Source: Candidatus Marinacidobacterium sp. (GTDB lineage Bacteria > Acidobacteriota > Vicinamibacteria > Marinacidobacterales > Marinacidobacteraceae). Taken from it: a DNA stretch of 64,000 bases. Positions 42,665 through 64,000 of the stretch are shown piece by piece (the first letter of the stretch is position 1; every line of letters begins with the position of its first letter). The translations under genes were made by a program, and so were the position numbers. The notes under the pieces are model-generated. The model was given only the letters and a program-made list of their open reading frames with translations. It did not search any database and had not been told where the DNA came from. Location: contig OZ244852.1 of assembly GCA_965220965.1 (NCBI GenBank), positions 672,001 to 736,000 on the forward strand. Reading direction: 5' to 3'.

Positions 42665-43024
42665 ATGAGCGGAAAAGACGCCGAGAATCCCTCCGGCGGC
42701 GCGGATGTCATCGAGGTGCGGATCGCCGGTGAGACCCACCGGCTGGTGGCCGACGCCGCGCCGGGCGCGACCGTGCGTGAGGCCGCCGGTCTGGTGGACC
42801 ACCGGATGCGCGCTGTCCTCGAGGCCGCGCCCGGGCTCTCGCGGGAGCGCGCCGCGATCCTCGCCGCCCTGAACCTCGGGCGCGAAGTCCTCGTCGCCCA
42901 GCGCGGTCAGAAGACCGTCGCCGCCGATGTCGGAGCCGCGGTGGCCCGGGTCCGCGAACGGCTCGGCGAGCTGGAAGCGGGGGCGGAAACCCCGTCGGAC
43001 GGGAGGGCTCCGGACACCGGTTGA
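42665..43024 (+). CDS. zapA: cell division protein ZapA
   Basis: IEVRIAGE, AGLVDHRMR, RAAILAALNL. Confidence 0.85.
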   Translation: MSGKDAENPSGGADVIEVRIAGETHRLVADAAPGATVREAAGLVDHRMRAVLEAAPGLSRERAAILAALNLGREVLVAQRGQKTVAADVGAAVARVRERLGELEAGAETPSDGRAPDTG

Positions 43025-44034
43025 CCGCCGAGGATCGGCTCCTCCGGGAGATCCTGGAGCGTCTGCCGGCGACGCCGCCCGGAGCGGAGGATGCGCCGCG
43101 CATCGTGGTCGGCCCCGGGGACGACGCGGCTGTCGTCCGCGCCGGAGGCGACGCCCGGGCGCCGTTGCTGCTGACCGTCGACGCCGCCGAGGAAGGCGTC
43201 CACTTCGACCGGAAGCTCCATCCCCCCGCCGCGATCGGCCGCCGGACGGTGGCGGCCGCCGTCAGCGACATCGCGGCCATGGGAGGGGCGCCGGTGGCGG
43301 CGCTCGCCTCGCTGGTGGTTCCCCGGGACGCGCGCCAGACCGCCCGGGAGGTCATGCGGGCGGCCGGGGAGCGCGCGGCGGAACTGGGAGCGCCGGTCGT
43401 GGGAGGAAACCTGAGTTCGGGGGCGCGGCTGGCGCTTCACGTGACGGTCGTGGGGACGGCGCCGGCGGGAGCGCCTCCGGTGCGTCGCCGCGGCGCCCGC
43501 CCGGGCGATGCGCTCTTCGTCAGCGGGCCCCTTGGGGGGGCTGCGCTTGGCCTCGAGGCGCTTCGTCGCCGGGCGGCCGGCGAGGCCCCGGGACGGCGAC
43601 TCAGCGGCCGGGAGGCCGCCTGGGTGGACGCCCATCTGGATCCTCAGCCGCGGCTCGCGCTCGGGGCCGAACTGGCCGGCCTCGCGACCGCCGGCATGGA
43701 CCTGTCCGACGGGCTGGCCCTCGATCTCCACCGTCTCCTCGAGGCCGCTTCGTGCGGGGGTGTCGTGGAGGCGGCGCGGATCCCCGCCGCCGGTCCGGGG
43801 CCGGACGGTCTGGAGGCGGCCCTGTTCGGCGGCGAGGACTACGAGCTGCTGTTCGCCGGCCCCGCCGGGGCGGTGGAGGCCCGGGCGGTCTCCGGCGGTC
43901 GGCCGTGGGCGGGAGTCACCCGGATCGGCGAGGTGACGTCCGGGTCCGGCGTGCGCCTCCGGTCGCCCGACGGCGGTCTGGCGCCGCTCGCCCGCCGGGG
44001 GTGGGACGCTCTGGAGGCCGGCGGCGACGCCTGA
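43021..44034 (+). CDS. thiL: thiamine-monophosphate kinase
   Basis: GPGDDAA, EGVHF, VSDIAAMG, VGGN, MDLSDGL, GGEDYEL. Confidence 0.93.
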   Translation: MTAEDRLLREILERLPATPPGAEDAPRIVVGPGDDAAVVRAGGDARAPLLLTVDAAEEGVHFDRKLHPPAAIGRRTVAAAVSDIAAMGGAPVAALASLVVPRDARQTAREVMRAAGERAAELGAPVVGGNLSSGARLALHVTVVGTAPAGAPPVRRRGARPGDALFVSGPLGGAALGLEALRRRAAGEAPGRRLSGREAAWVDAHLDPQPRLALGAELAGLATAGMDLSDGLALDLHRLLEAASCGGVVEAARIPAAGPGPDGLEAALFGGEDYELLFAGPAGAVEARAVSGGRPWAGVTRIGEVTSGSGVRLRSPDGGLAPLARRGWDALEAGGDA

Positions 44035-56356: not shown

Positions 56357-58978
56357 ATGGTCCGAGCCGCTCTGCTGTCCCTGCTGATCGCTGCGCCGGG
56401 GGCTTTCGCCGCCGCCGCGCAGGCGCAAGAGATCCCGGCGCCCGCCGAGGCTCTCGGTTTCGAGCCGGGCGACGACTACAAGCTGGCGCTGTGGGACGAG
56501 CTCCTGTCCTACTACCGCGATCTGGCGGCGGCGAGCGACCGCGTCGAGTTGCGCCAGATCGGCGAGACGGTGCTCGGCAAGCCGCTCATCATGCTGTTCG
56601 TCTCCTCGCCGGAGAATCTGGCCCGCCTCGACGAACACCGCGCCAACGCCCAGGCCATGGCGCAGGCCGACATCTCCGAGGCGGAGGCGCTTCGCATCTC
56701 GCGGGAAGGCAAGGCGATCGTCTGGATCGACGCCGGCCTCCACGCCACCGAGGTGGCCCCGGCCCAGATGATGCCGCTCCTCGCCCATCGCATGGCCACC
56801 GAGGAATCGGACGAGATGGATGCGATCCGGGACCGCGTCATCACGATCCTGATGCCCTGCATGAATCCCGACGGGCTCGACATCGTGGCCTCCTGGTACC
56901 AGCGCAACCTGGGAACGCCCTTCGAGACGACGCGGCCTCCCGAGCTTTACCACCACTACGTGGGCCACGACAACAACCGCGACTGGTTCATGAACAACAT
57001 GCCCGAGACGGCCGCCGTCAGCCGCGTGCTCTACCACGAGTGGTTCCCGCAGATCGTCTACAACCACCACCAGACCGGGCCGGCGTGGGCGCGGATCTTC
57101 ATTCCGCCCTTCGCCGACCCGGTGAACCCGAGGATCCATCCCGGGGTGACGACTTCGGTGAACCTGATCGGATCGGCGATGGCGAACCGGTTCGCCATGA
57201 AGCGGATGCCCGGGGCCGTCTCCGACATGATCTATTCCATGTGGTGGAACGGTGGGATGCGCACGGTCCCCTACTTCCACAACATGATCGGCCTGCTCAC
57301 CGAGACCTCGCACGCCTCGGCGAGTCCCCGGATCTACGACCCGGCGGATCGTCCGGCTTTCGTCGGCAATCCCCGCAGGGGACAGGCGGCGCCCACGAAT
57401 GGCACGGATGTGTTCTACCCCTATCCGTGGGAAGGGGGTGAGTCACCCTTCTCCGATCCGATCCGGTACACGCTGACCGCATCGATGGCGGTCCTCGATG
57501 TGGCCGCCGACCTTCGCGAAAAGTGGCTGTTCGACATCTGGCGGATGGGGCGCGACGCCATCGAGAACAGCGACAACGACTGGATCGCGCCGGCCGGGCA
57601 GTGGGATCCGGGCGAGACGGCCGCGCTGATCAACGTTCTCCTCGAGGGCGGCGTCCGGGTCGAGCGGGCCACCAGGGAGTTCGAGGTGGACGGGGTCTCC
57701 TACGACGCCGGCTCCTACATCGTCCCCGGCGCGCAGGCGTTCCGCGCCTACGCCGAGGACCTGCTCGAGGAACAGGCCTACCCGGATCGGCGGCGCACGC
57801 CCGATGGCCCCCCGGATCCCCCCTACGACCTCGCCGGGTGGACGCTGCCGATGCAGATGGGCGTGCGGGTGGATCGCGTCCCGTCCATCGAGGTTCCCTC
57901 CGAGCCGGTCAACGGCCCGGTCCGGGCCCCGGCGGGCGAGGTGGACGTCGGGCGGTTCGGCTATGCGATCTCGCATGCGCCGAACGCGGCGGTCATCGCC
58001 CAGAACCGGCTTCTGGCCGCCGGCGCCGATGTCGCCTGGGCCCGGGAGTCCTTCTCCTCCCAGGGGCGCGACTTCCCCGCCGGAACGCTTGTCGTCCCGC
58101 GATCGGACCCGGCCGACGCCGCCATGGAGGGGATCGGATCCGAGCTGGGACTGGATGTCGCGGGCCTCGATGAGGCCCCCGCCGTCGAGCTGTATTCCCT
58201 CGCTCCCACCCGGGTGGGGCTCTACAAGTCGTGGGTGGCGAGCATGGACGAGGGCTGGACCCGGTGGCTGCTCGAGAACTACGAATACGACCTCACGAAC
58301 CTCTCGGATGACGATGTGCGAAGCGGCGACCTGTCCCGCCTCGACGTGATCGTGCTGCCGCATCAGTCGCCGCAGGAGATCCTTCAGGGCCACGCCCCGG
58401 GGACGATGCCCGCCGAGTACACCGGCGGCGTCGGACTCGAGGGCGCTCTCGCGCTTCACCGGTTCGTCGAGGAAGGCGGCACGCTGGTGGCGCTCGACCA
58501 GGCCAGCGACTTCGTGATTTCCCAGTTCGGACTGCCCCTCCGGAACGTCACCGCGTCGCTGTCCGAGAACCGCTTCTTCATCCCCGGTTCGCTGATCCGC
58601 GCGGTCGTGGACACTGGCCATCCGCTCGCCTTCGGGATGCGGGATGAGGTCGCGACCCAGTTCGTCCGCAGCCGCGCCTTCGACGTCGCATCGCTTCCGC
58701 GCCGCCGCGAGGGAGGGGAGGAAACGACGGTCGAGCCGCCCCCTCCGAACGTGGAGGTCATCGCCCGTTACGCCGAGAAGGATCTGCTCATGAGCGGCTG
58801 GGCGTTCGGGGAGGAAAGCGCCATCGGCGGCAAGATCGCCATGGCGCGCGTCCCCGTCGGCGCCGGGGAGGTCGTCCTCTTCGGCTTCCGCCCCCAGTTC
58901 CGCGGGCAGCCGCGCGGCACCTACAAGCTGCTGCTCAACGCGCTGAACGGCGCCACCGTCGAGGACTTCGGTCGCTGA
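56357..58978 (+). CDS. secreted M14 zinc carboxypeptidase family protein
   Basis: GGAGGAGG SD; signal peptide; GLHATE (HxxE), NPDG, DNNRD, NHHQ; C-terminal DEGWTRW domain. Confidence 0.88.
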   Translation: MVRAALLSLLIAAPGAFAAAAQAQEIPAPAEALGFEPGDDYKLALWDELLSYYRDLAAASDRVELRQIGETVLGKPLIMLFVSSPENLARLDEHRANAQAMAQADISEAEALRISREGKAIVWIDAGLHATEVAPAQMMPLLAHRMATEESDEMDAIRDRVITILMPCMNPDGLDIVASWYQRNLGTPFETTRPPELYHHYVGHDNNRDWFMNNMPETAAVSRVLYHEWFPQIVYNHHQTGPAWARIFIPPFADPVNPRIHPGVTTSVNLIGSAMANRFAMKRMPGAVSDMIYSMWWNGGMRTVPYFHNMIGLLTETSHASASPRIYDPADRPAFVGNPRRGQAAPTNGTDVFYPYPWEGGESPFSDPIRYTLTASMAVLDVAADLREKWLFDIWRMGRDAIENSDNDWIAPAGQWDPGETAALINVLLEGGVRVERATREFEVDGVSYDAGSYIVPGAQAFRAYAEDLLEEQAYPDRRRTPDGPPDPPYDLAGWTLPMQMGVRVDRVPSIEVPSEPVNGPVRAPAGEVDVGRFGYAISHAPNAAVIAQNRLLAAGADVAWARESFSSQGRDFPAGTLVVPRSDPADAAMEGIGSELGLDVAGLDEAPAVELYSLAPTRVGLYKSWVASMDEGWTRWLLENYEYDLTNLSDDDVRSGDLSRLDVIVLPHQSPQEILQGHAPGTMPAEYTGGVGLEGALALHRFVEEGGTLVALDQASDFVISQFGLPLRNVTASLSENRFFIPGSLIRAVVDTGHPLAFGMRDEVATQFVRSRAFDVASLPRRREGGEETTVEPPPPNVEVIARYAEKDLLMSGWAFGEESAIGGKIAMARVPVGAGEVVLFGFRPQFRGQPRGTYKLLLNALNGATVEDFGR

Positions 58979-59015
58979 GCCGGGCGGCGCTCCGGAGCGG
59001 TGTGGCGGTGTCGGG

Positions 59016-59738
59016 ATGACGCCCGTCACCCCGGCGCTGTTCGACTTCCTGCGCGATCTGGCGGCGAACAACGAGCGGGCCTGGTTCCAGGCGAACCGGG
59101 ACCGTTACGAGGCGGATGTCGTCCGCCCGATGCTCGATTTCGTGGCGGCCTTCGCCGCGCCGCTGGCCGAGATCAGCCCCCACTTCCGCGCTGACCCGAG
59201 GCGGAATGGCGGGTCCATGTTCCGGATCCACCGGGACGTGCGCTTCGCCCGGGACAAGTCGCCCTACAAGACGAATGTCGGGGCGCAGTTCCGCCATGCG
59301 ATGGGGAAGGATGTCCACGCCCCCGCCTTCTACCTCCATCTGGCGCCCGGCGAGTGCTTCGCCGCCGCGGGCGTCTGGCGGCCCGACTCCGGCGCCTTGG
59401 GGCGGATCCGCGACGCCCTGGTGGAACGACCGGCGACCTGGACGCGTATCGTCAGCGCCCCGGCGTTCCGGAGCACGCTGCGGCTGGCGGGCGAGTCCCT
59501 GAAGCGCGCTCCGAGGGGATACGACCCGGCGCACCCGCTCGTTTCCGACCTGAAGCGCAAGGACTTCGTGGCGGTCGCCGATCTTCTGGAGGAGGATGTC
59601 GTGCGGAGCGGCTTCCTCGAGGAGTTCGCCCGGATCGCCCGCGCCGCCGCTCCATTCATGGCGTTCCTCTGCCAGGCGATCGGCGTCCCGTTCGGGTCCG
59701 ATGACCCGCCGCCCACGGGCGCCGAGGTCGACTGCTAG
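59016..59738 (+). CDS. DUF2461 family protein
   Basis: FLRDLAANNERAWF, FRIHRDVRFARDKSPYK, LKRAPRGY, LKRK. Confidence 0.88.
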   Translation: MTPVTPALFDFLRDLAANNERAWFQANRDRYEADVVRPMLDFVAAFAAPLAEISPHFRADPRRNGGSMFRIHRDVRFARDKSPYKTNVGAQFRHAMGKDVHAPAFYLHLAPGECFAAAGVWRPDSGALGRIRDALVERPATWTRIVSAPAFRSTLRLAGESLKRAPRGYDPAHPLVSDLKRKDFVAVADLLEEDVVRSGFLEEFARIARAAAPFMAFLCQAIGVPFGSDDPPPTGAEVDC

Positions 59739-59752
59739 AATCCGCGCCGCTC

Positions 59753-60025
59753 ATGTCGCGCACCTGCCCGCTGACCGGAAAGCGTCCCCTCGCGGGGAAC
59801 TCGATCAGCCACGCCCACAACAAGAACCGGCGGCGCCAGCTTCCCAACCTGCAGTGGAAGTCGGTGTGGGTTCCGGAGCTGGGGCGCACCGTCCGGCTTC
59901 GGCTGAGCACGCGCGCGCTGCGCACCATCGACAAGAAGGGTCTCGTTCCGTACCTGCGGGGCGAGGGGCTGCGGCTGAAGGATGTCCTTCCTCCCCGCGC
60001 CCACGCCCGCAACGTCTCCATCTGA
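59753..60025 (+). CDS. rpmB: 50S ribosomal protein L28
   Basis: MSRTCPLTGK..GNSISHAHNK..PNLQ..LRTIDKKG. Confidence 0.95.
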   Translation: MSRTCPLTGKRPLAGNSISHAHNKNRRRQLPNLQWKSVWVPELGRTVRLRLSTRALRTIDKKGLVPYLRGEGLRLKDVLPPRAHARNVSI

Positions 60026-60112
60026 GCGCCGCCTCGCGCCTGGCCGCGGGACCCCGCGAACCGCCGGGTTCGAGCGGCCGGGAACCAGGCCTCCGCTGGT
60101 ATCCTTGAATCG

Positions 60113-60469
60113 ATGAGTCTTGTCGGCCGGGCTCTCGGAACCGCCGCGCCGTTCGTCCCCGCCAGAGAGATCGACGAGGTCCTCGCGGACCCGAAGGTGC
60201 TGCTCCTCGATGTGCGCACCGCACGCGAGCTGCACGAGGCGGGCACGATTCCCGGCGCGGTGCACGTTCATCTGGGTGAGCTCGCGGACCGGCTCGAGGA
60301 GCTGCCGCGCGACCGCCCGGTCCTGACCACCTGAATGGTGGGACCCCGGGCTGCGCGGGCCGCAGCCATCCTGGAACGCGCCGGGTTCGAGGTCGTCGGA
60401 TTCTCCGGCCTGGTCAAGTACACCGGTGAGCGCGAGTACCGCGCGATGGAAAACGAAGGAGGTTCGTGA
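60113..60469 (+). CDS. rhodanese-like protein, putative selenoprotein (TGA 60332-60334 = Sec74)
   Basis: LLDVRT..GTIPGA..LPRDRPVLTT-[TGA]-MVGPRAARAAAILERAGF; the rhodanese fold continues past the TGA at the catalytic Cys position. Confidence 0.85.
60349..60367 (+). promoter_or_regulatory. putative bacterial SECIS hairpin 1
   Basis: GGCTGCG-CGGGC-CGCAGCC, 7-bp stem with loop at +22..+26 after the TGA. Confidence 0.65.
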
Positions 60470-60912
60470 TGGAACAACGCGGAACACGGGTCGGGCTCGT
60501 TCCGATCACCGCCATGCTCGCCGGGCTGGCGCTCGGGGCGTGCGGAACCGGGGGCGGCGAGACCGCCGGCGGCGAGAGCGCCGGCGGGAGCGCGGAGCCT
60601 GCCGAGGCGGCGCCCCGGGTGGAGGCCGCCGACATCGACGCGGCGCTCGCGAACGGAGCGCTCCTGCTCGACGTGCGCACTTCCGAGGAACTCGCGGAGC
60701 ACGGCACGATCGACGGCTTCGTCCACATCCCGATCGACGAACTGGAGGCGAGGATCGGTGAACTCCCCACGGGAGTTCCCATCCTCACTGCTTGACAGGG
60801 TGGCGGAAGAGCCGCGCGTGCCGCGGAGCTGCTCACTGCGAATGGATACGAGGTCGTGGGTTTCTGCGGTCTCCGTGACTACGAGGGCGAGAGGGTCTAT
60901 CCGGGAAGCTGA
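60469..60912 (+). CDS. rhodanese-like lipoprotein, putative selenoprotein (TGA 60793-60795 = Sec109)
   Basis: GAAGGAGGT SD; lipobox LGAC; LLDVRT..LPTGVPILTA-[TGA]-QGGGRAARAAELLTANGYEVVGFCG. Confidence 0.85.
60812..60826 (+). promoter_or_regulatory. putative bacterial SECIS hairpin 2
   Basis: CCGCG-CGTGC-CGCGG, loop at +22..+26 after the TGA, same register as hairpin 1. Confidence 0.6.
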
Positions 60913-60962
60913 CCGGACGGACTGAACCGGGACACCCGCCCCGGGCCTCGGGCCTGAGGCAC

Positions 60963-60991
60963 ACCGCTCCCGCCTTCGGGAGCGGTTTGTT
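60963..60991 (+). terminator. putative intrinsic terminator after the rhodanese pair
   Basis: ACCGCTCCCG-CCTT-CGGGAGCGGT followed by TTGTT. Confidence 0.65.
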
Positions 60992-61112
60992 CGGGCCGGC
61001 TTCGAGAAGTTCGCCGGACACGCGATCGCCGGGCTTCTGTGACCCTGGCGATCCCGCGGGTAGCGTCCCGGGTTCACCGAACGCGCGGAATCCGTTGACC
61101 CGAGGCCACGAG

Positions 61113-61592
61113 ATGAAGACCTTCGGCGGCTTCCAGCGTCGCTTTGTTCGTTTTCTGGAACGGGCGACCGATGTCAGCAGCTTTACCGAACTGGCTACCA
61201 CCGAGCGGGCGTCCGCCGGTGTTTCGCACCGGTTGGACTACCTCAGGCAGAGCGACCCCTGCGACGCCGACTGGGTGGTCTTCCAGAGGGCTCCTGACGG
61301 CGAAGAAGTGCGCTGGATCGTGGTGACAAGAAAGAGCGACTGTCTCGAAGACAAAGACGACGACGCTCTCCATGACTGGTGTCGCCAGGCCAGGCGGGTC
61401 ACGGCGGAGGAGTGGCGTTTCACTCGGATCAACAAGATCGACTTCGATGCGGTCGAGGCGCAAGCGGAGACGTTCGGCGACCTCTTCGCGCATTGCTGGA
61501 TGCGGGAAGCGCGCCGCCTCCGGGAGGAACTCGGGATCGCCCCGATGACGCACGAGGAGATCAGGGCGGCCATCGAGGAGGGGAGAGAGTGA
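61113..61592 (+). CDS. hypothetical protein resembling a degenerate type III restriction Res C-terminal domain
   Basis: FQRRFVRFLERATDV, LDYL, DWVVFQ..DGE..WIVVTRK, WC, WRFTRI..FD; visibly more AT-rich than the flanks. Confidence 0.5.
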   Translation: MKTFGGFQRRFVRFLERATDVSSFTELATTERASAGVSHRLDYLRQSDPCDADWVVFQRAPDGEEVRWIVVTRKSDCLEDKDDDALHDWCRQARRVTAEEWRFTRINKIDFDAVEAQAETFGDLFAHCWMREARRLREELGIAPMTHEEIRAAIEEGRE

Positions 61593-61736
61593 AGCTGGCG
61601 TCCTGGTCGCTCTCGGCGCCCTCGTGGTCGTCCCGGGAGACCTGACGGGGAGCCAGGGCGGAACAGGAGCGGGAGTTCCGTTCCTGATCGGGCCGGGGTG
61701 GACGGTGCGCCCCTCGACGCTGACCCCCGTACAGCG

Positions 61737-61768
61737 AAAACCCCCGGGGCGCGAACGCCCCGGGGGTT
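61737..61768 (-). terminator. intrinsic terminator for the minus-strand aminotransferase genes
   Basis: Minus strand AACCCCCGGGGCG-TTCG-CGCCCCGGGGGTT then TT, about 20 nt past the stop at 61788. Confidence 0.8.
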
Positions 61769-61787
61769 CCGTCGGCGGAGTGTCGGG

Positions 61788-62963
61788 TTACGCCGCCATC
61801 TTCATGGCCGAGTCGAGCACGTTCGCCATCTTCGCGGCGGCGCGCTGCATCTCGTCCATCGTGCCGATCGAGATCCGGCAGCGGGTCCACAGCGGCGGGA
61901 ACGGCCGGCCGACCCGGACGCCTTCCGCGGCGCAGGCGGCCTGGAACTGCTCCACCGGCATCCCCACATCCGTGAAGATGAAGTTCGTCTGGGCGTCGGT
62001 CGCGTTGAAGCCACGGTCCCGGAAGAACTTCAGGATGAAGTCGCGGGCCTCGGCGTTCCGCGCCTTCTCGTTCGGCAGGAACTCGGGGTTGGCTCGGTCG
62101 CGCTCCAGCGCGGCGTTCGCCGCGACGAGCGCCGGGATGCTCACCGAGTTGCCCATGTGGAACTCGCTCAGCTCGGCGACCGTGTCGGCGTGCGCGATCG
62201 CGTAGCCGATCCGGAGACCCGCCATCCCGTAGGCCTTCGAGAAGGTCCGCGCCACGATGACCCGGGGGTTCTCGAGCGCCATCGGGATCATCGTCTCGTG
62301 GCCGGGAGTGGTCACGTAGTCGATGTAGGCCTCGTCCACGAGGATGCGGAGATCCTTCTCGGTGTCGAGCGCGCGGGTCAGGAAGTCCGTGCTGTCCGAG
62401 GGGTCAACCAGCGTCGCGACCGGGTTGTTCGGGTTGCAGTAGAACAGCATCCCGCTCCCCTTGACCGCGTGGAGCGTCTGGTCGAGGTCCATCTTGAAGT
62501 CCGCGGTCAGCGGGACGGCCTTCGTCCGGTAGCCCATGAGCGCCGCGTAACCGAAGCACTCCTCGTAGGTCGGCAGCGACCCGACGAGCGCCTTGTCGGC
62601 GCTGGCGTACTGGTGCGTGGAGTCCACCAGGATCTGGGTGGAGCCGGCGCCGATCAGGACGTTGTCGGTGCTGACGCCGAACTTCTCGGCGATCGCCTCC
62701 TGGGCGGGCCCGAGGAAGCGGAACGGGTAGCGGCCGGCGATCACGCCATCGGGACCGATGACGGAGTCGATCGCGTCCATCACCTCGTCACCAGGACCGA
62801 GAGAGTTCTCGTTGTTCGCCAGGTTGATCGCCTCTTCAGGCTGGATCCCCATTTCCGCCGCGAACGCGTACTGCTCGCGGAGACGGGACCGCACCATCGT
62901 GGCGGCGTAGAGGCCGGCGGCGCCAGCGGAAGCGTGCCGGAGGAAACGGCGGCGAGAGAGCAT
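61788..62963 (-). CDS. Tat-exported HisC-like class I/II PLP aminotransferase
   Basis: GAGGAGGT SD; MLSRRRFL Tat motif; NEN, RYP, CNPNNP, DEAY, RTFSKAYGMAGLRIG. Confidence 0.88.
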   Translation of the reverse strand: MLSRRRFLRHASAGAAGLYAATMVRSRLREQYAFAAEMGIQPEEAINLANNENSLGPGDEVMDAIDSVIGPDGVIAGRYPFRFLGPAQEAIAEKFGVSTDNVLIGAGSTQILVDSTHQYASADKALVGSLPTYEECFGYAALMGYRTKAVPLTADFKMDLDQTLHAVKGSGMLFYCNPNNPVATLVDPSDSTDFLTRALDTEKDLRILVDEAYIDYVTTPGHETMIPMALENPRVIVARTFSKAYGMAGLRIGYAIAHADTVAELSEFHMGNSVSIPALVAANAALERDRANPEFLPNEKARNAEARDFILKFFRDRGFNATDAQTNFIFTDVGMPVEQFQAACAAEGVRVGRPFPPLWTRCRISIGTMDEMQRAAAKMANVLDSAMKMAA

Positions 62964-63017
62964 GGGGTGACGACCTCCTCGGACCTGGCCGGGCGGGGAA
63001 AGGGAGCGCATGCGGCG

Positions 63018-63998
63018 CTATTGCTGCTGGTTGTCCGTGGCGGTGAGCCCGAGGACGTCGGCGAAGACCGCGGTGGCCCGCTTCATCTCGTCGAGCGTTC
63101 CGATGGAGATGCGGGCGTGGCTGTTCTCGTAGGGCGGGAAGTCCCGACCCACGAAGACGCCCTGCTCGGCGCACGCCTCGCGGAACTCCCTCGCGGAGCG
63201 CCCGATGTCCACGAACACGAAGTTCGTCTCGCTCGGGACCGGGTCGAGGCCGTGGCTCGAGAAGAAGTCCAGCGTGAACTTCCGGGCCTCCTCGTTGCGC
63301 TTCACCTCGTTCTTGATGTAGTCCGGGTCTTCGAGCGAGGCCATCGCGGCGCCGATCGAGAGGACGGACGTTCCGAACGTGAGCGCCAGCGGAGCCAGCT
63401 TGGCGATCGTTCCGGCCTGGCCCATCGCGTAGCCGACCCGGAGTCCGGCCATCCCGAACGCCTTCGAGAAGGTGCGGCCGATGAACACGTCGCGGTGCCG
63501 CATGGCGAGCTCCGCGCCGGTCTCGAAGGCCGGGTGCGTCACGTAGTCGTAGTACGCCTCGTCCAGCAGGATCGCGGTGTACGGGGACTCCTTCTTGACG
63601 AACTCGACGAAGTCGGTCACGTCGGCGAGCGAATGGACCGTCCCGGTCGGGTTGTTCGGGTTGCAGAGGAAGACGAGACCGGAGCCGATCGCGGCGCCCG
63701 CCATCTTCTCGAGGTCGAGGCCGAGGCCCCCGGTCATCGGGATCGCCTTGACCGGCGCCCCCATCCACCGGGCGGTGCGGATCGGGTTCTCGTAGGAGCA
63801 CTCCGCCGTCACCAGCGCGCGGTCCGGACCGGTGTAGAGGCGGACGGCGTTCCGCAGGATCTCGGAGGATCCGGGCGCGAGCACCACGTTCTCCGGACCG
63901 CCGCCGTACATCCCGCCGATCTTCCGGCGCAGATCCGCGTCGCTCGTCGCGGCGTTCATCGGATAGCGCATGATCGAGCCGTAGGCGGCGCGAAGGCC
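63018..63998 (-). CDS. HisC-like class I/II PLP aminotransferase (5' truncated by window edge)
   Basis: Frame open to the window edge; RYP, CNPNNPTG, DEAY, RTFSKAFGMAGLRVG. Confidence 0.88.
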   Translation of the reverse strand, partial: GLRAAYGSIMRYPMNAATSDADLRRKIGGMYGGGPENVVLAPGSSEILRNAVRLYTGPDRALVTAECSYENPIRTARWMGAPVKAIPMTGGLGLDLEKMAGAAIGSGLVFLCNPNNPTGTVHSLADVTDFVEFVKKESPYTAILLDEAYYDYVTHPAFETGAELAMRHRDVFIGRTFSKAFGMAGLRVGYAMGQAGTIAKLAPLALTFGTSVLSIGAAMASLEDPDYIKNEVKRNEEARKFTLDFFSSHGLDPVPSETNFVFVDIGRSAREFREACAEQGVFVGRDFPPYENSHARISIGTLDEMKRATAVFADVLGLTATDNQQQ

Positions 63999-64000
63999 CT

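What the first reader, a model, noticed from the sequence alone, without database searches (positions are those of the whole stretch)
60113..60912. Tandem pair of hidden selenoprotein rhodaneses (top candidate system)
Seen: two adjacent paralogs that the ORF track truncates at 73 and 109 aa. In both, the TGA (60332, 60793) sits exactly where the catalytic Cys of the rhodanese C-x-x-G-x-R loop belongs (U-MVGPRA, U-QGGGRA), and the frames continue with mutually homologous sequence (RAARAAAILERAGFEVVGFSGLVKYTGERE vs RAARAAELLTANGYEVVGFCGLRDYEGERV) to stops at 60469 and 60912. The genes are coupled (TGATG), with their own -10 box and terminator. TGA is an ordinary stop elsewhere in the window. Known: Sec is encoded by UGA at catalytic Cys positions, and Sec-containing rhodanese-like proteins have been predicted in bacteria. 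Inference: a two-gene selenoenzyme operon for sulfur/selenium transfer or detoxification that standard annotation would miss.
Basis: partly seen in the sequence, partly recalled or inferred. Interest (0 to 1): 0.9.

Follow-up and report, generated by a model that had tools for sequence, protein, structure and literature searches.

The report
Paired selenocysteine rhodanese genes, mis-annotated as fragments
Two neighbouring small sulfur-transfer enzyme genes each use the stop codon TGA to encode selenocysteine at the catalytic site, so routine annotation cuts them in half; the type is already known from predictions, but this pair, one form staying in the cell and one exported, is a clean, conserved example.

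Summary
Gene 1 (60113-60469) and gene 2 (60469-60912) are single-domain rhodaneses, each with an in-frame TGA (60332, 60793) on the catalytic Cys column.

- **Sec machinery:** the genome, a Vicinamibacteria (Acidobacteriota) assembly, has selA, selB, selD and tRNA-Sec.
- **Conservation of the TGA:** all 78 close matches in 42 related genomes keep it, and all 42 genomes have selA. In a sample of the phylum, 31 of 32 matches carry it.
- **Coding downstream:** dN/dS after the TGA (0.16-0.18) is about the same as before it (0.13-0.20).
- **SECIS-like hairpin:** a 5-7 bp stem with loop CG(U/G)GC starts 14-16 nt after each TGA. It fits the published bacterial SECIS model, has frozen synonymous sites and shows a few compensatory changes.
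- **Location:** gene 1 has no signal peptide. Gene 2 has a lipoprotein signal.

Public protein sets store the homologues as 70-77 aa fragments. Sec-containing rhodaneses with a U-x-x-G motif are already in published selenoprotein catalogues, so this is a new member of a known kind. The proteins are probably persulfide or thiosulfate sulfurtransferases, but that function is inferred, and neither selenium incorporation nor activity has been shown.

The parts
60113..60469 (+). Gene 1: cytoplasmic single-domain rhodanese selenoprotein, 118 aa with Sec74
   Evidence: AlphaFold model: pLDDT 88.2, pTM 0.80, rhodanese fold, Sec at the end of strand 70-74 just before helix 78-89. Foldseek top hits are rhodanese domains. 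No lipobox-type signal in 0 of 27 homologues.
60332..60334 (+). Sec codon (TGA) of gene 1, on the catalytic Cys column
   Evidence: TGA is kept in every gene-1 homologue found.
60349..60367 (+). SECIS-like hairpin of gene 1: 7-bp stem (60349-60355 with 60361-60367) and loop CGGGC (60356-60360)
   Evidence: -13.1 kcal/mol. It carries the U-A variant of a pair that is C-G in most homologues. Synonymous sites are frozen.
60455..60462 (+). Shine-Dalgarno-like GAAGGAGG ahead of the gene 2 ATG (6-nt spacing from GGAGG)
   Evidence: Read directly; inference.
60469..60912 (+). Gene 2: predicted lipoprotein rhodanese selenoprotein, 147 aa from ATG 60469, with Sec109. The start overlaps the stop of gene 1 (TGATG). 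GTG 60466 is an alternative start.
60469..60543 (+). Signal peptide with lipobox L-G-A-C; lipid-anchor Cys codon at 60541-60543; followed by a Gly/Glu/Ala/Pro-rich tether
   Evidence: By my own pattern rule, 26 of 27 gene-2 homologues and 20 of 23 order-level homologues carry it. No dedicated signal-peptide predictor was available.
60793..60795 (+). Sec codon (TGA) of gene 2, on the catalytic Cys column
60812..60826 (+). SECIS-like hairpin of gene 2: 5-bp stem (60812-60816 with 60822-60826) and loop CGUGC (60817-60821)
   Evidence: -7.8 kcal/mol alone, -16.9 with a lower stem. The five codons that form it have zero third-position entropy in 27 homologues.
60865..60867 (+). Conserved Cys133 of gene 2 (G-F-C-G), at the end of the strand next to the active-site strand; candidate resolving Cys
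   Evidence: Cys in 27 of 27 gene-2 and 24 of 24 order-level homologues. It is mostly Ser in gene 1. Closeness to Sec is inferred from the fold, not measured.
60963..60986 (+). Terminator-like 10-bp hairpin followed by UUGUU
   Evidence: Fold z -3.34. Not listed by the consensus scan.

Best explanation
Both genes are genuine selenoprotein genes. During translation, SelB carrying Sec-tRNA(Sec) binds a small hairpin 14-16 nt after each UGA and inserts selenocysteine where ordinary rhodaneses have the catalytic cysteine. This part is shown by comparative evidence only. The products are single-domain sulfurtransferases that would carry sulfane sulfur as a Se-S (selenopersulfide) intermediate. Gene 1 acts in the cytoplasm. 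Gene 2 is exported and lipid-anchored outside the inner membrane, where an invariant nearby Cys could form a selenenylsulfide with Sec. The pair resembles, as a layout, the cytoplasmic GlpE plus periplasmic PspE of E. coli. It belongs to a small thiol-redox selenoproteome in a genome that has no formate dehydrogenase. The function, the location and the Sec-Cys interplay are inferred, not shown.
For: **Sec machinery in the genome**
- selA 492 bits, selB 326 bits, selD 252 bits and tRNA-Sec 74 bits, all above their cut-offs. ARAGORN calls a tRNA-SeC with anticodon tca.

**Cys/Sec pairing**
- The TGA lies on the catalytic Cys column of PDB and database homologues.

**Conservation of the TGA**
- 78 of 78 matches at E <= 2e-21 in 42 of 61 related genomes carry an in-frame TGA. 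26 of 27 other genomes of the same family have both genes in tandem.
- All 42 of those genomes have selA above cut-off. The 3 of 61 genomes without selA have only stop-free (Cys) rhodanese matches.
- Across 301 genomes of the phylum, 30 have a match at 1e-15, and 31 of 32 matches carry the TGA.
- Real terminal stops of gene 2 vary (11 TGA, 3 TAA, 13 TAG), but the internal codon is always TGA.

**Coding downstream of the TGA**
- dN/dS upstream versus downstream: 0.15/0.18, 0.13/0.16 and 0.20/0.17 in the three groups.

**Hairpin**
- It meets the four criteria of the published bacterial SECIS model quoted: a 5-nt loop with G at position 2 followed by U or G, a 5-7 bp stem, 21 nt from UGA to the loop, and -13.1 / -7.8 kcal/mol.
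- All 5 core pairs are paired in 64 of 64 distinct sequences. One pair reads C-G 57, U-G 4, U-A 3. Another reads G-C 63, A-U 1.
- Third-position entropy at the five hairpin codons is 0.47 / 0.00 / 0.13 bits, against 1.18 / 0.89 / 0.99 at other conserved four-fold codons. dS there drops to 0.17 against 0.98 in gene 2.

**Same pattern elsewhere in the genome**
- Four further candidate selenoprotein genes, in families that have known Sec members, carry hairpins starting within about 20 nt of their UGA with G-containing loops (my reading of the folds).

**Fold and nearest structures**
- AlphaFold pLDDT is 88.2. The nearest structures are rhodanese domains of persulfide-handling enzymes: CoADR-RHD 3icr, NADH persulfide reductase 3nt6 and 4ocg, and persulfide dioxygenase-rhodanese 5ve3.

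**Lipoprotein signal**
-.
Against: - No experiment shows selenium in these proteins, and no sulfurtransferase activity has been measured.
- The 60-nt stretches after the TGAs fold no better than shuffled sequence (z +0.67 and +0.72; 150 and 152 of 200 shuffles fold at least as well). In DNA this G+C-rich, such a hairpin is not unusual by stability alone.
- Covariation is thin. Only 8 of 64 sequences differ at one pair and 1 of 64 at another. The sequences are related, and I picked them with a pattern that required U and RAA.AA, so amino-acid invariance there is partly built in.
- No Rfam family matched the hairpins at E <= 10.
- The loop does not fit the finer 'N1 pairs with N2' detail that the model describes as common.
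- No conserved neighbouring gene points to a pathway.
- The lipoprotein call rests on my own pattern rule, not a trained predictor.
- The distance between Sec and Cys133 was not measured.
Confidence: 0.88

Rival explanations
1. Same genes and same Sec insertion, but the chemistry is redox rather than sulfur transfer. Sec and the nearby conserved Cys would cycle through a selenenylsulfide, acting as a small reductase or redox sensor, for example for peroxide, selenite, arsenate or disulfides, in line with the other thiol-oxidoreductase selenoproteins of the genome.
For: Cys133 is invariant in 27 of 27 and 24 of 24 exported forms. The other candidate selenoproteins of the genome are all thiol-redox families: a Trx-like PDO, AhpC/TSA, AhpD-like and OsmC-like. 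The reviews note that most predicted selenoproteins are redox proteins.
Against: The cytoplasmic gene 1 mostly has Ser at that position (21 of the 26 sequences displayed). The active-site loop has the six-residue sulfurtransferase length (U-x-x-G-x-R). That this length separates sulfurtransferases from the longer phosphatase/arsenate-reductase loop is recalled knowledge, not tested here. The nearest solved relatives handle persulfides.
Confidence: 0.3
2. The UGA is read through or recoded without selenium, for example as Trp or Cys by near-cognate or mischarged tRNA, so the proteins are full-length but not selenoproteins.
For: Nothing here measures selenium. Read-through alone would also explain the coding constraint downstream.
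Against: Complete Sec machinery is present in all 42 genomes that carry the TGA form, and no TGA form was found in the 3 genomes without selA. The codon sits exactly on the catalytic Cys. A conserved hairpin at SECIS distance has frozen synonymous sites. TGA is not generally reassigned: selA, selB and selD have no internal stops.
Confidence: 0.05
3. The TGAs are true stops. The genes would be split or decaying rhodaneses, or gene 1 would be made as two peptides by stop-start coupling at TGA-ATG.
For: Gene 1 has ATG directly after the TGA in all 27 homologues. Public annotation treats the genes as 70-77 aa proteins.
Against: Genes 2 and their order-level relatives have CAG or AAC after the TGA, not a start codon. 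A Cys homologue has the same loop, C-M-V-G-P-R-A, so Met is a normal loop residue (P0076). Truncated products would lack the catalytic residue, the active-site loop, a helix and a strand of the fold. dN/dS downstream is 0.16-0.18. The internal codon is TGA in 78 of 78 matches, whereas terminal stops vary.
Confidence: 0.02

Closest known systems
Predicted Sec-containing rhodanese-related sulfurtransferases (COG0607/PF00581; 'forms 2 and 4', motif UxxG) in published prokaryotic selenoprotein catalogues
   Same: Single rhodanese domain, Sec at the catalytic position, U-x-x-G motif, Cys-containing homologues, known only from computation. I saw passages of PMC13188914, PMC9312934, PMC1976440 and PMC2398784.
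   Different: I could not fetch the exemplar accessions, so identity with this clade is untested. Those passages do not mention a tandem cytoplasmic plus lipoprotein pair, Vicinamibacteria, or the C-terminal G-F-C-G-L-x-x-Y-x-G-E-R/K motif. Supplements were not available.
NCBIfam NF041203 rhodanese-related (seleno)protein, 'LYCAU' / CxU form
   Same: Small rhodanese selenoprotein family used by NCBI for naming.
   Different: In that family Sec lies two residues after the canonical Cys (CxU). Here Sec replaces the canonical Cys. Scores are 25.8 and 14.6 bits against a cut-off of 115.
E. coli GlpE (cytoplasmic) and PspE (periplasmic) single-domain thiosulfate sulfurtransferases
   Same: About 100-aa single rhodanese domains, one inside and one outside the cytoplasmic membrane. 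Their roles are recalled knowledge.
   Different: They use Cys, not Sec. PspE is soluble, not a lipoprotein. The two genes are not adjacent. The NCBIfam equivalogs score far below cut-off: GlpE 24.7 and 17.7 against 102, PspE 13.2 and 16.4 against 102.
Rhodanese domains of persulfide enzymes: CoADR-RHD (3icr), NADH-dependent persulfide reductase (3nt6, 4ocg), persulfide dioxygenase-rhodanese fusion BpPRF (5ve3)
   Same: Best sequence and fold matches (E 7e-12; Foldseek E 3.9e-8, rmsd 1.2 A over 87 columns). The catalytic Cys aligns with Sec.
   Different: Those are domains fused to flavoprotein or dioxygenase partners and use Cys. Here the proteins stand alone and use Sec.

Membership tests
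Bacterial selenoprotein gene (Sec-UGA with SECIS) | In-frame UGA aligned with Cys in homologues | tested here: met
   The column is Cys in at least 90% of 54 aligned sequences.
Bacterial selenoprotein gene (Sec-UGA with SECIS) | selA, selB, selC and selD in the genome | tested here: met
   all above curated cut-offs. selA is present in 42 of 42 genomes with the TGA form.
Bacterial selenoprotein gene (Sec-UGA with SECIS) | Hairpin fitting the bSECIS model: 3-9 nt loop, 4-16 bp stem, G in the first two loop positions, 16-37 nt from UGA to loop, MFE <= -7.5 kcal/mol | tested here: met
   Criteria from PMC13188914, Fig. 2 legend. Here: 5-nt loop CG(U/G)GC, 5-7 bp stem, 21 nt spacing, -13.1 and -7.8 kcal/mol. 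Stability is not above shuffles.
Bacterial selenoprotein gene (Sec-UGA with SECIS) | Coding constraint continues after the UGA | tested here: met
   dN/dS downstream is 0.16-0.18, against 0.13-0.20 upstream.
Bacterial selenoprotein gene (Sec-UGA with SECIS) | Selenium demonstrated in the protein | not testable with these tools
   Needs 75Se labelling or mass spectrometry.
Rhodanese homology domain (PF00581) | Profile match above the gathering score, and the rhodanese fold | tested here: met
   49.7 and 40.0 bits against 22.2. Model pLDDT 88.2. Foldseek hits are rhodanese domains.
Rhodanese homology domain (PF00581) | Catalytically competent six-residue loop C/U-x-x-G-x-R after the central strand | tested here: met
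   U-M-V-G-P-R and U-Q-G-G-G-R. Sec lies at the end of strand 70-74, before helix 78-89. The loop-length rule is recalled knowledge.
NF041203 rhodanese-related (seleno)protein (CxU form) | Score above the 115-bit cut-off and a C-x-U motif | tested here: not met
   25.8 and 14.6 bits. The motif here is U-x-x-G.
Published 'rhodanese-like selenoprotein form 2 / form 4' (UxxG) | PF00581 domain with a UxxG motif | tested here: met
   Motif and domain as listed.
Published 'rhodanese-like selenoprotein form 2 / form 4' (UxxG) | Sequence relatedness to the exemplar accessions | not tested
   The exemplars could not be fetched with these tools.
Bacterial lipoprotein (gene 2 only) | Signal peptide ending in a lipobox with an invariant Cys | tested here: inconclusive
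   M-E-Q-R-G-T-R, a hydrophobic run, then L-G-A-C. My pattern rule finds it in 26 of 27 and 20 of 23 homologues and in 0 of 27 gene-1 homologues. No trained predictor or experiment.
GlpE / PspE equivalogs (NF001195, NF007627) | Score above the 102-bit cut-off | tested here: not met
   24.7 and 17.7 bits; 13.2 and 16.4 bits.

The most novel reading that the evidence does not exclude
This is a rhodanese clade that depends on Sec throughout: 31 of 32 matches across the phylum carry it, and all Sec forms make up one well-supported clade. Its cytoplasmic and lipid-anchored members would work as a matched pair moving sulfane sulfur (or selenium) on both sides of the inner membrane. The exported form would use a Sec-Cys selenenylsulfide, making it a lipoprotein selenoenzyme of the cell envelope. 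The gene also travels with its built-in SECIS as a roughly 0.7-kb repeated cassette between Sec-decoding Acidobacteriota.
Probability: 0.2. Interest if true: 0.65.

Novelty: new member of a known kind. Interest (0 to 1): 0.45.

Why it matters
No Sec-containing rhodanese has been studied at the bench as far as the passages I read show; the reviews list these families as predicted. This pair is an unusually clean candidate. It is small, conserved in a whole family of Vicinamibacteria and has close Cys relatives for comparison. It also offers a cytoplasmic and an exported version side by side.

It shows a systematic annotation error. Public protein sets hold these genes as 70-77 aa fragments named 'rhodanese-like' or 'hypothetical'. 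Selenoproteomes of Acidobacteriota are therefore undercounted, and NCBI's named selenoprotein models do not cover this clade.

It also illustrates how a SECIS hairpin laid over the codons of a conserved helix (A-A-R-A-A) freezes both the protein and the synonymous sites.

Tried and rejected
- **Rfam scan of 58000-64000 at E <= 10.** No SECIS or other family falls on the hairpins.
- **Single-sequence folding.** The stretches after the TGAs are no more stable than shuffles, so stability alone is not evidence.
- **Promoter scan.** No promoter-like site was found.
- **Genome-wide hairpin filter.** 2293 TGA sites pass a loose hairpin rule and 56 pass a loop-specific rule. The filter does not discriminate in this G+C-rich genome, so I dropped it in favour of a codon-position G+C filter plus family searches. 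My thresholds excluded the two rhodanese genes themselves, so that list is not a complete selenoproteome.
- **Candidate at G000:C1:209886 (C-V-G-C-TGA).** Rejected. It is the true stop of an ankyrin-repeat gene, followed in frame by a DUF429 gene.
- **SelD-like match inside the window (43021-44031).** It is a generic AIR-synthase-related protein, with no link to the finding.
- **Conserved neighbours.** rpmB lies upstream in only 8 of 50 loci. DUF2461 and the 201-aa ORF appear only in the window's own locus. The aminotransferase appears in 4 of 50. No functional partner emerged.
- **Formate dehydrogenase.** Not found in this 94% complete genome.
- **RNA evidence.** Contigs from two metatranscriptomic libraries of one study hold a relative's locus, roughly 80-88% alike over the laid pieces. 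One 1316-nt contig lies on both genes, across both TGA positions. The tool warns that DNA can be present in such libraries and that contigs do not show single transcripts, so this is only a weak hint of expression.
- **Complex prediction.** Not used. The two products are predicted to sit in different compartments.
- **Tools and files not available.** Supplementary files of the papers were not consulted and may hold the sequences of the published 'forms'.
- **Literature searches.** For this clade I searched rhodanese + selenoprotein + SECIS + bacterial, selenoprotein + Acidobacteria + rhodanese and Vicinamibacter + selenocysteine. None returned a paper on these genes. This covers only the held library.
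- **Unpublished genomes.** G036 is one of the 61 genomes; it has no TGA form and no selA. G107 is one of the 30 positives. The counts that include them rest partly on those genomes.
Full report
**What is in the sequence**

The region holds two adjacent plus-strand genes.
- Gene 1 runs from ATG 60113 to TGA 60467-60469.
- Gene 2 starts at ATG 60469, overlapping that stop as TGATG, with GGAGG 6 nt upstream. GTG 60466 is an alternative start. It ends at TGA 60910-60912.
- Read through, the proteins are 118 and 147 aa.
- Pfam Rhodanese matches both across the TGA (E 5.3e-13 and 5.6e-10).
- The TGA sits at the head of the active-site loop (U-M-V-G-P-R-A and U-Q-G-G-G-R-A).
- In the best PDB alignment it lies on the catalytic Cys of the rhodanese domain of the persulfide dioxygenase-rhodanese fusion 5ve3. 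That residue is Ser in the chain 5ve4, which Foldseek's titles describe as the rhodanese-inactivating C314 mutant.
- In a 54-sequence alignment the column is Cys in at least 90% of rows.

**Can the organism decode Sec?**

Relatives' records name the lineage as Acidobacteriota, class Vicinamibacteria. The window's own genome is 3.25 Mb in 2 contigs and 94% complete. It has:
- selA at 492 bits;
- selB at 326 bits, matched over positions 1-580 of 581;
- selD at 252 bits;
- a tRNA-Sec at 74 bits, which ARAGORN calls SeC with anticodon tca.

TGA is not generally reassigned. These long genes have no internal stops, and rpmB just upstream ends in TGA.

**Is the TGA conserved, and is the downstream part coding?**

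- In 61 related genomes, 78 of 78 matches with E <= 2e-21 carry an in-frame TGA. They lie in 42 genomes.
- 26 of 27 other genomes of the same family have both genes in tandem. The weaker matches are mostly stop-free Cys forms.
- All 42 genomes have selA above its cut-off. The three genomes without selA (G036, G055, G059) have only stop-free matches.
- In an even sample of 301 genomes of the phylum, 30 have a match at E <= 1e-15. Of the 32 matches, 31 carry the TGA.
- dN/dS after the TGA is 0.18, 0.16 and 0.17 for gene 1, gene 2 and the order-level homologues. Before the TGA it is 0.15, 0.13 and 0.20.
- The terminal stop of gene 2 varies (11 TGA, 3 TAA, 13 TAG), whereas the internal codon never does.
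- Caveat: the sequences were collected with a pattern that requires U and RAA.AA. The unbiased count is therefore the one.

**The hairpin**

Each TGA is followed by a small G+C-rich hairpin formed by the codons of A-A-R-A-A.
- Gene 1: 7-bp stem at 60349-60367, loop CGGGC, -13.1 kcal/mol.
- Gene 2: 5-bp stem at 60812-60826, loop CGUGC, -7.8 kcal/mol alone and -16.9 with a lower stem.
- The hairpins meet the four criteria of the published bacterial SECIS model. I read these in the Fig. 2 legend of PMC13188914: loop 3-9 nt, stem 4-16 bp, G within the first two loop positions, 16-37 nt from UGA to loop (here 21), and MFE <= -7.5.
- In 64 distinct sequences the five core pairs are always paired. 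One pair reads C-G 57, U-G 4, U-A 3. Another reads G-C 63, A-U 1. The window's gene 1 carries the U-A variant.
- Synonymous sites are frozen. Third-position entropy of the five hairpin codons is 0.47, 0.00 and 0.13 bits. At other conserved four-fold codons it is 1.18, 0.89 and 0.99.
- The Arg codon that supplies the loop U is CGT in 27 of 27 and 23 of 23 sequences, and T or G only in gene 1.
- dS in the hairpin region of gene 2 is 0.17, against 0.98 further downstream.

Points against the hairpin reading:
- The stretches fold no better than shuffles.
- The covariation is sparse and comes from related sequences.
- Rfam gave no match.

The case for a SECIS therefore rests on position, the model criteria and nucleotide-level conservation.

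**Other selenoproteins in the genome**

A scan for TGA codons flanked by coding-like G+C3 on both sides, followed by family searches, gave four further candidates. In each, the domain spans the TGA at a known redox motif:
- a Trx-like protein disulfide oxidoreductase (T-U-P-W-C; TIGR02187, 156 bits, query cut at its N-terminus);
- an AhpC/TSA protein (W-U-P-F-C; PF00578, 1.6e-29);
- an AhpD-like peroxidase-related protein (C-H-Y-U; TIGR01926, 142 bits against a cut-off of 81.8);
- an OsmC-like protein (PF02566, 1.8e-11).

By my reading of the folds, each has a hairpin starting within about 20 nt of its UGA with a G-containing loop. No formate dehydrogenase was found. The genome has only four rhodanese domains: one two-domain Cys protein and these two. 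The Sec machinery thus appears to serve a small thiol-redox selenoproteome in which the two rhodaneses are the only single-domain rhodaneses.

**What the proteins are**

- The AlphaFold model of gene 1 is confident (pLDDT 88.2, pTM 0.80). It places Sec74 at the end of strand 70-74, followed by the loop and helix 78-89. From recalled knowledge, this is the standard rhodanese active-site arrangement.
- The best fold and sequence matches are rhodanese domains attached to persulfide enzymes: CoADR-RHD, NADH-dependent persulfide reductase, CoA-persulfide reductase and persulfide dioxygenase-rhodanese.
- Gene 1 has no signal sequence. By my pattern rule, 0 of 27 gene-1 homologues have a lipobox.
- Gene 2 begins with a basic stretch, a hydrophobic run and L-G-A-C, followed by a Gly/Glu/Pro-rich tether. 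By the same rule, 26 of 27 gene-2 homologues have this signal. The 27th visibly has one too. Among order-level homologues, 20 of 23 have it.
- The exported forms all keep a Cys in G-F-C-G at the end of the next strand (27 of 27 and 24 of 24). Gene 1 mostly has Ser there.
- I infer that Sec forms a Se-S intermediate in sulfane-sulfur transfer, and that in the exported form this Cys may pair with Sec. Neither point is shown.

**Evolution**

In a maximum-likelihood tree of the 54 aligned rows, all Sec forms plus one odd database protein (P0061) form one clade, with support 100/99. That protein has Gly and an extra residue at the site. Gene 1 is sister to the exported forms, and the Cys proteins lie outside (midpoint root only). 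Outside the window's family, genomes usually carry only the exported form. One genome has an exported-then-cytoplasmic tandem (L056).

**Comparison with what is known**

- Sec-containing rhodaneses are in print as predictions. The 2026 review lists five forms, two of them PF00581 with a UxxG motif.
- Earlier metagenome surveys list 'sulfurtransferase COG0607' and 'rhodanese-related sulfurtransferase' selenoproteins.
- I saw only passages, not supplements, and could not fetch the exemplar sequences.
- NCBI's selenoprotein model for rhodaneses (NF041203, CxU form) does not cover these proteins (25.8 and 14.6 bits against 115).
- Public protein sets hold the close homologues of gene 1 as fragments. 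Of the 66 hits with E <= 2.3e-18, 64 are 70-77 aa long and cover 59-62% of the query. They are named 'rhodanese-like domain-containing protein', 'hypothetical protein' or 'rhodanese-related sulfurtransferase'. The other two are the odd P0061 and a frame-shifted 116-aa call.

**Verdict**

This is a real, conserved pair of selenoprotein genes that annotation truncates. It is a new member of a known, so far purely predicted, kind rather than a new system. Its interest lies in the tidy cytoplasmic and lipoprotein pairing, the near-universal use of Sec in the clade, and its suitability for a first biochemical study of a Sec-rhodanese.

Noticed in passing
L088-L091 (G000:C1:1184723-1185358, 1193730-1194335, 1905922-1906575, 1192655-1193230): Four further candidate selenoprotein genes elsewhere in the same genome: Trx-like PDO (U-P-W-C), AhpC/TSA (W-U-P-F-C), AhpD-like (C-H-Y-U) and OsmC-like. 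In each, the domain spans the TGA and a hairpin follows it. Three of them lie within about 9 kb of each other.
   Followed up: partly
G000, whole genome: The Sec machinery is complete, but no formate dehydrogenase alpha subunit was found with TIGR01553 in this 94% complete genome. The selenoproteome appears to consist only of thiol-redox proteins.
   Followed up: partly
L060:1357-2074 and the matching parts of L061, L063, L065-L069, L072: A unit of about 0.7 kb carries the exported Sec-rhodanese gene. It recurs at 96-99.9% identity at six places in one 10-Mb genome (G045) and in genomes of other genera and families (G030, G039; 94-95% in G042 and G043). It is flanked by shuffled short repeats, which suggests a small mobile cassette or recent transfer.
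   Followed up: partly
L064 and L072: Two copies of that cassette look decayed. One lacks the signal-peptide part. The other has an extra in-frame TGA inside the signal peptide.
   Followed up: no
L074, L075, L077, L078; L076; L079: Relatives carry other rhodanese types with in-frame TGA. One is a V-V-Y-U-A-V-G-G-R-S type, with Sec again on the Cys column. Another is V-F-T-U-D-T-G. A third is a C-T-U type that resembles the published CxU form.
   Followed up: no
P0061 (database protein, 134 aa): A lipoprotein-type member of the Sec clade has Gly and one extra residue where the others have Sec (L-V-L-G-A-S-G-D-A-R-A-A-R-A-A). It may be an inactive variant or a sequencing or gene-calling artefact on a 2.4-kb contig.
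   Followed up: no
window 60026-60112: The rpmB to gene 1 spacer is strongly structured (-46.3 kcal/mol, z -2.15; 7 of 200 shuffles fold as well). It could be a terminator of rpmB or a leader of the pair.
   Followed up: no
L022:2543-3337 (minus strand): In the most sampled genus of the family, the gene beside the pair on the opposite strand looks by eye like an FGE-sulfatase/EgtB-type domain. This resemblance is recalled and was not tested with a family search. Upstream lies a large hydrolase-like ORF.
   Followed up: no
window 60203-60375 and 60653-60912: Contigs from two metatranscriptomic libraries of one study hold a relative's two-gene locus on a single 1316-nt contig, with both TGA positions unchanged. 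This is only a weak hint of expression.
   Followed up: partly
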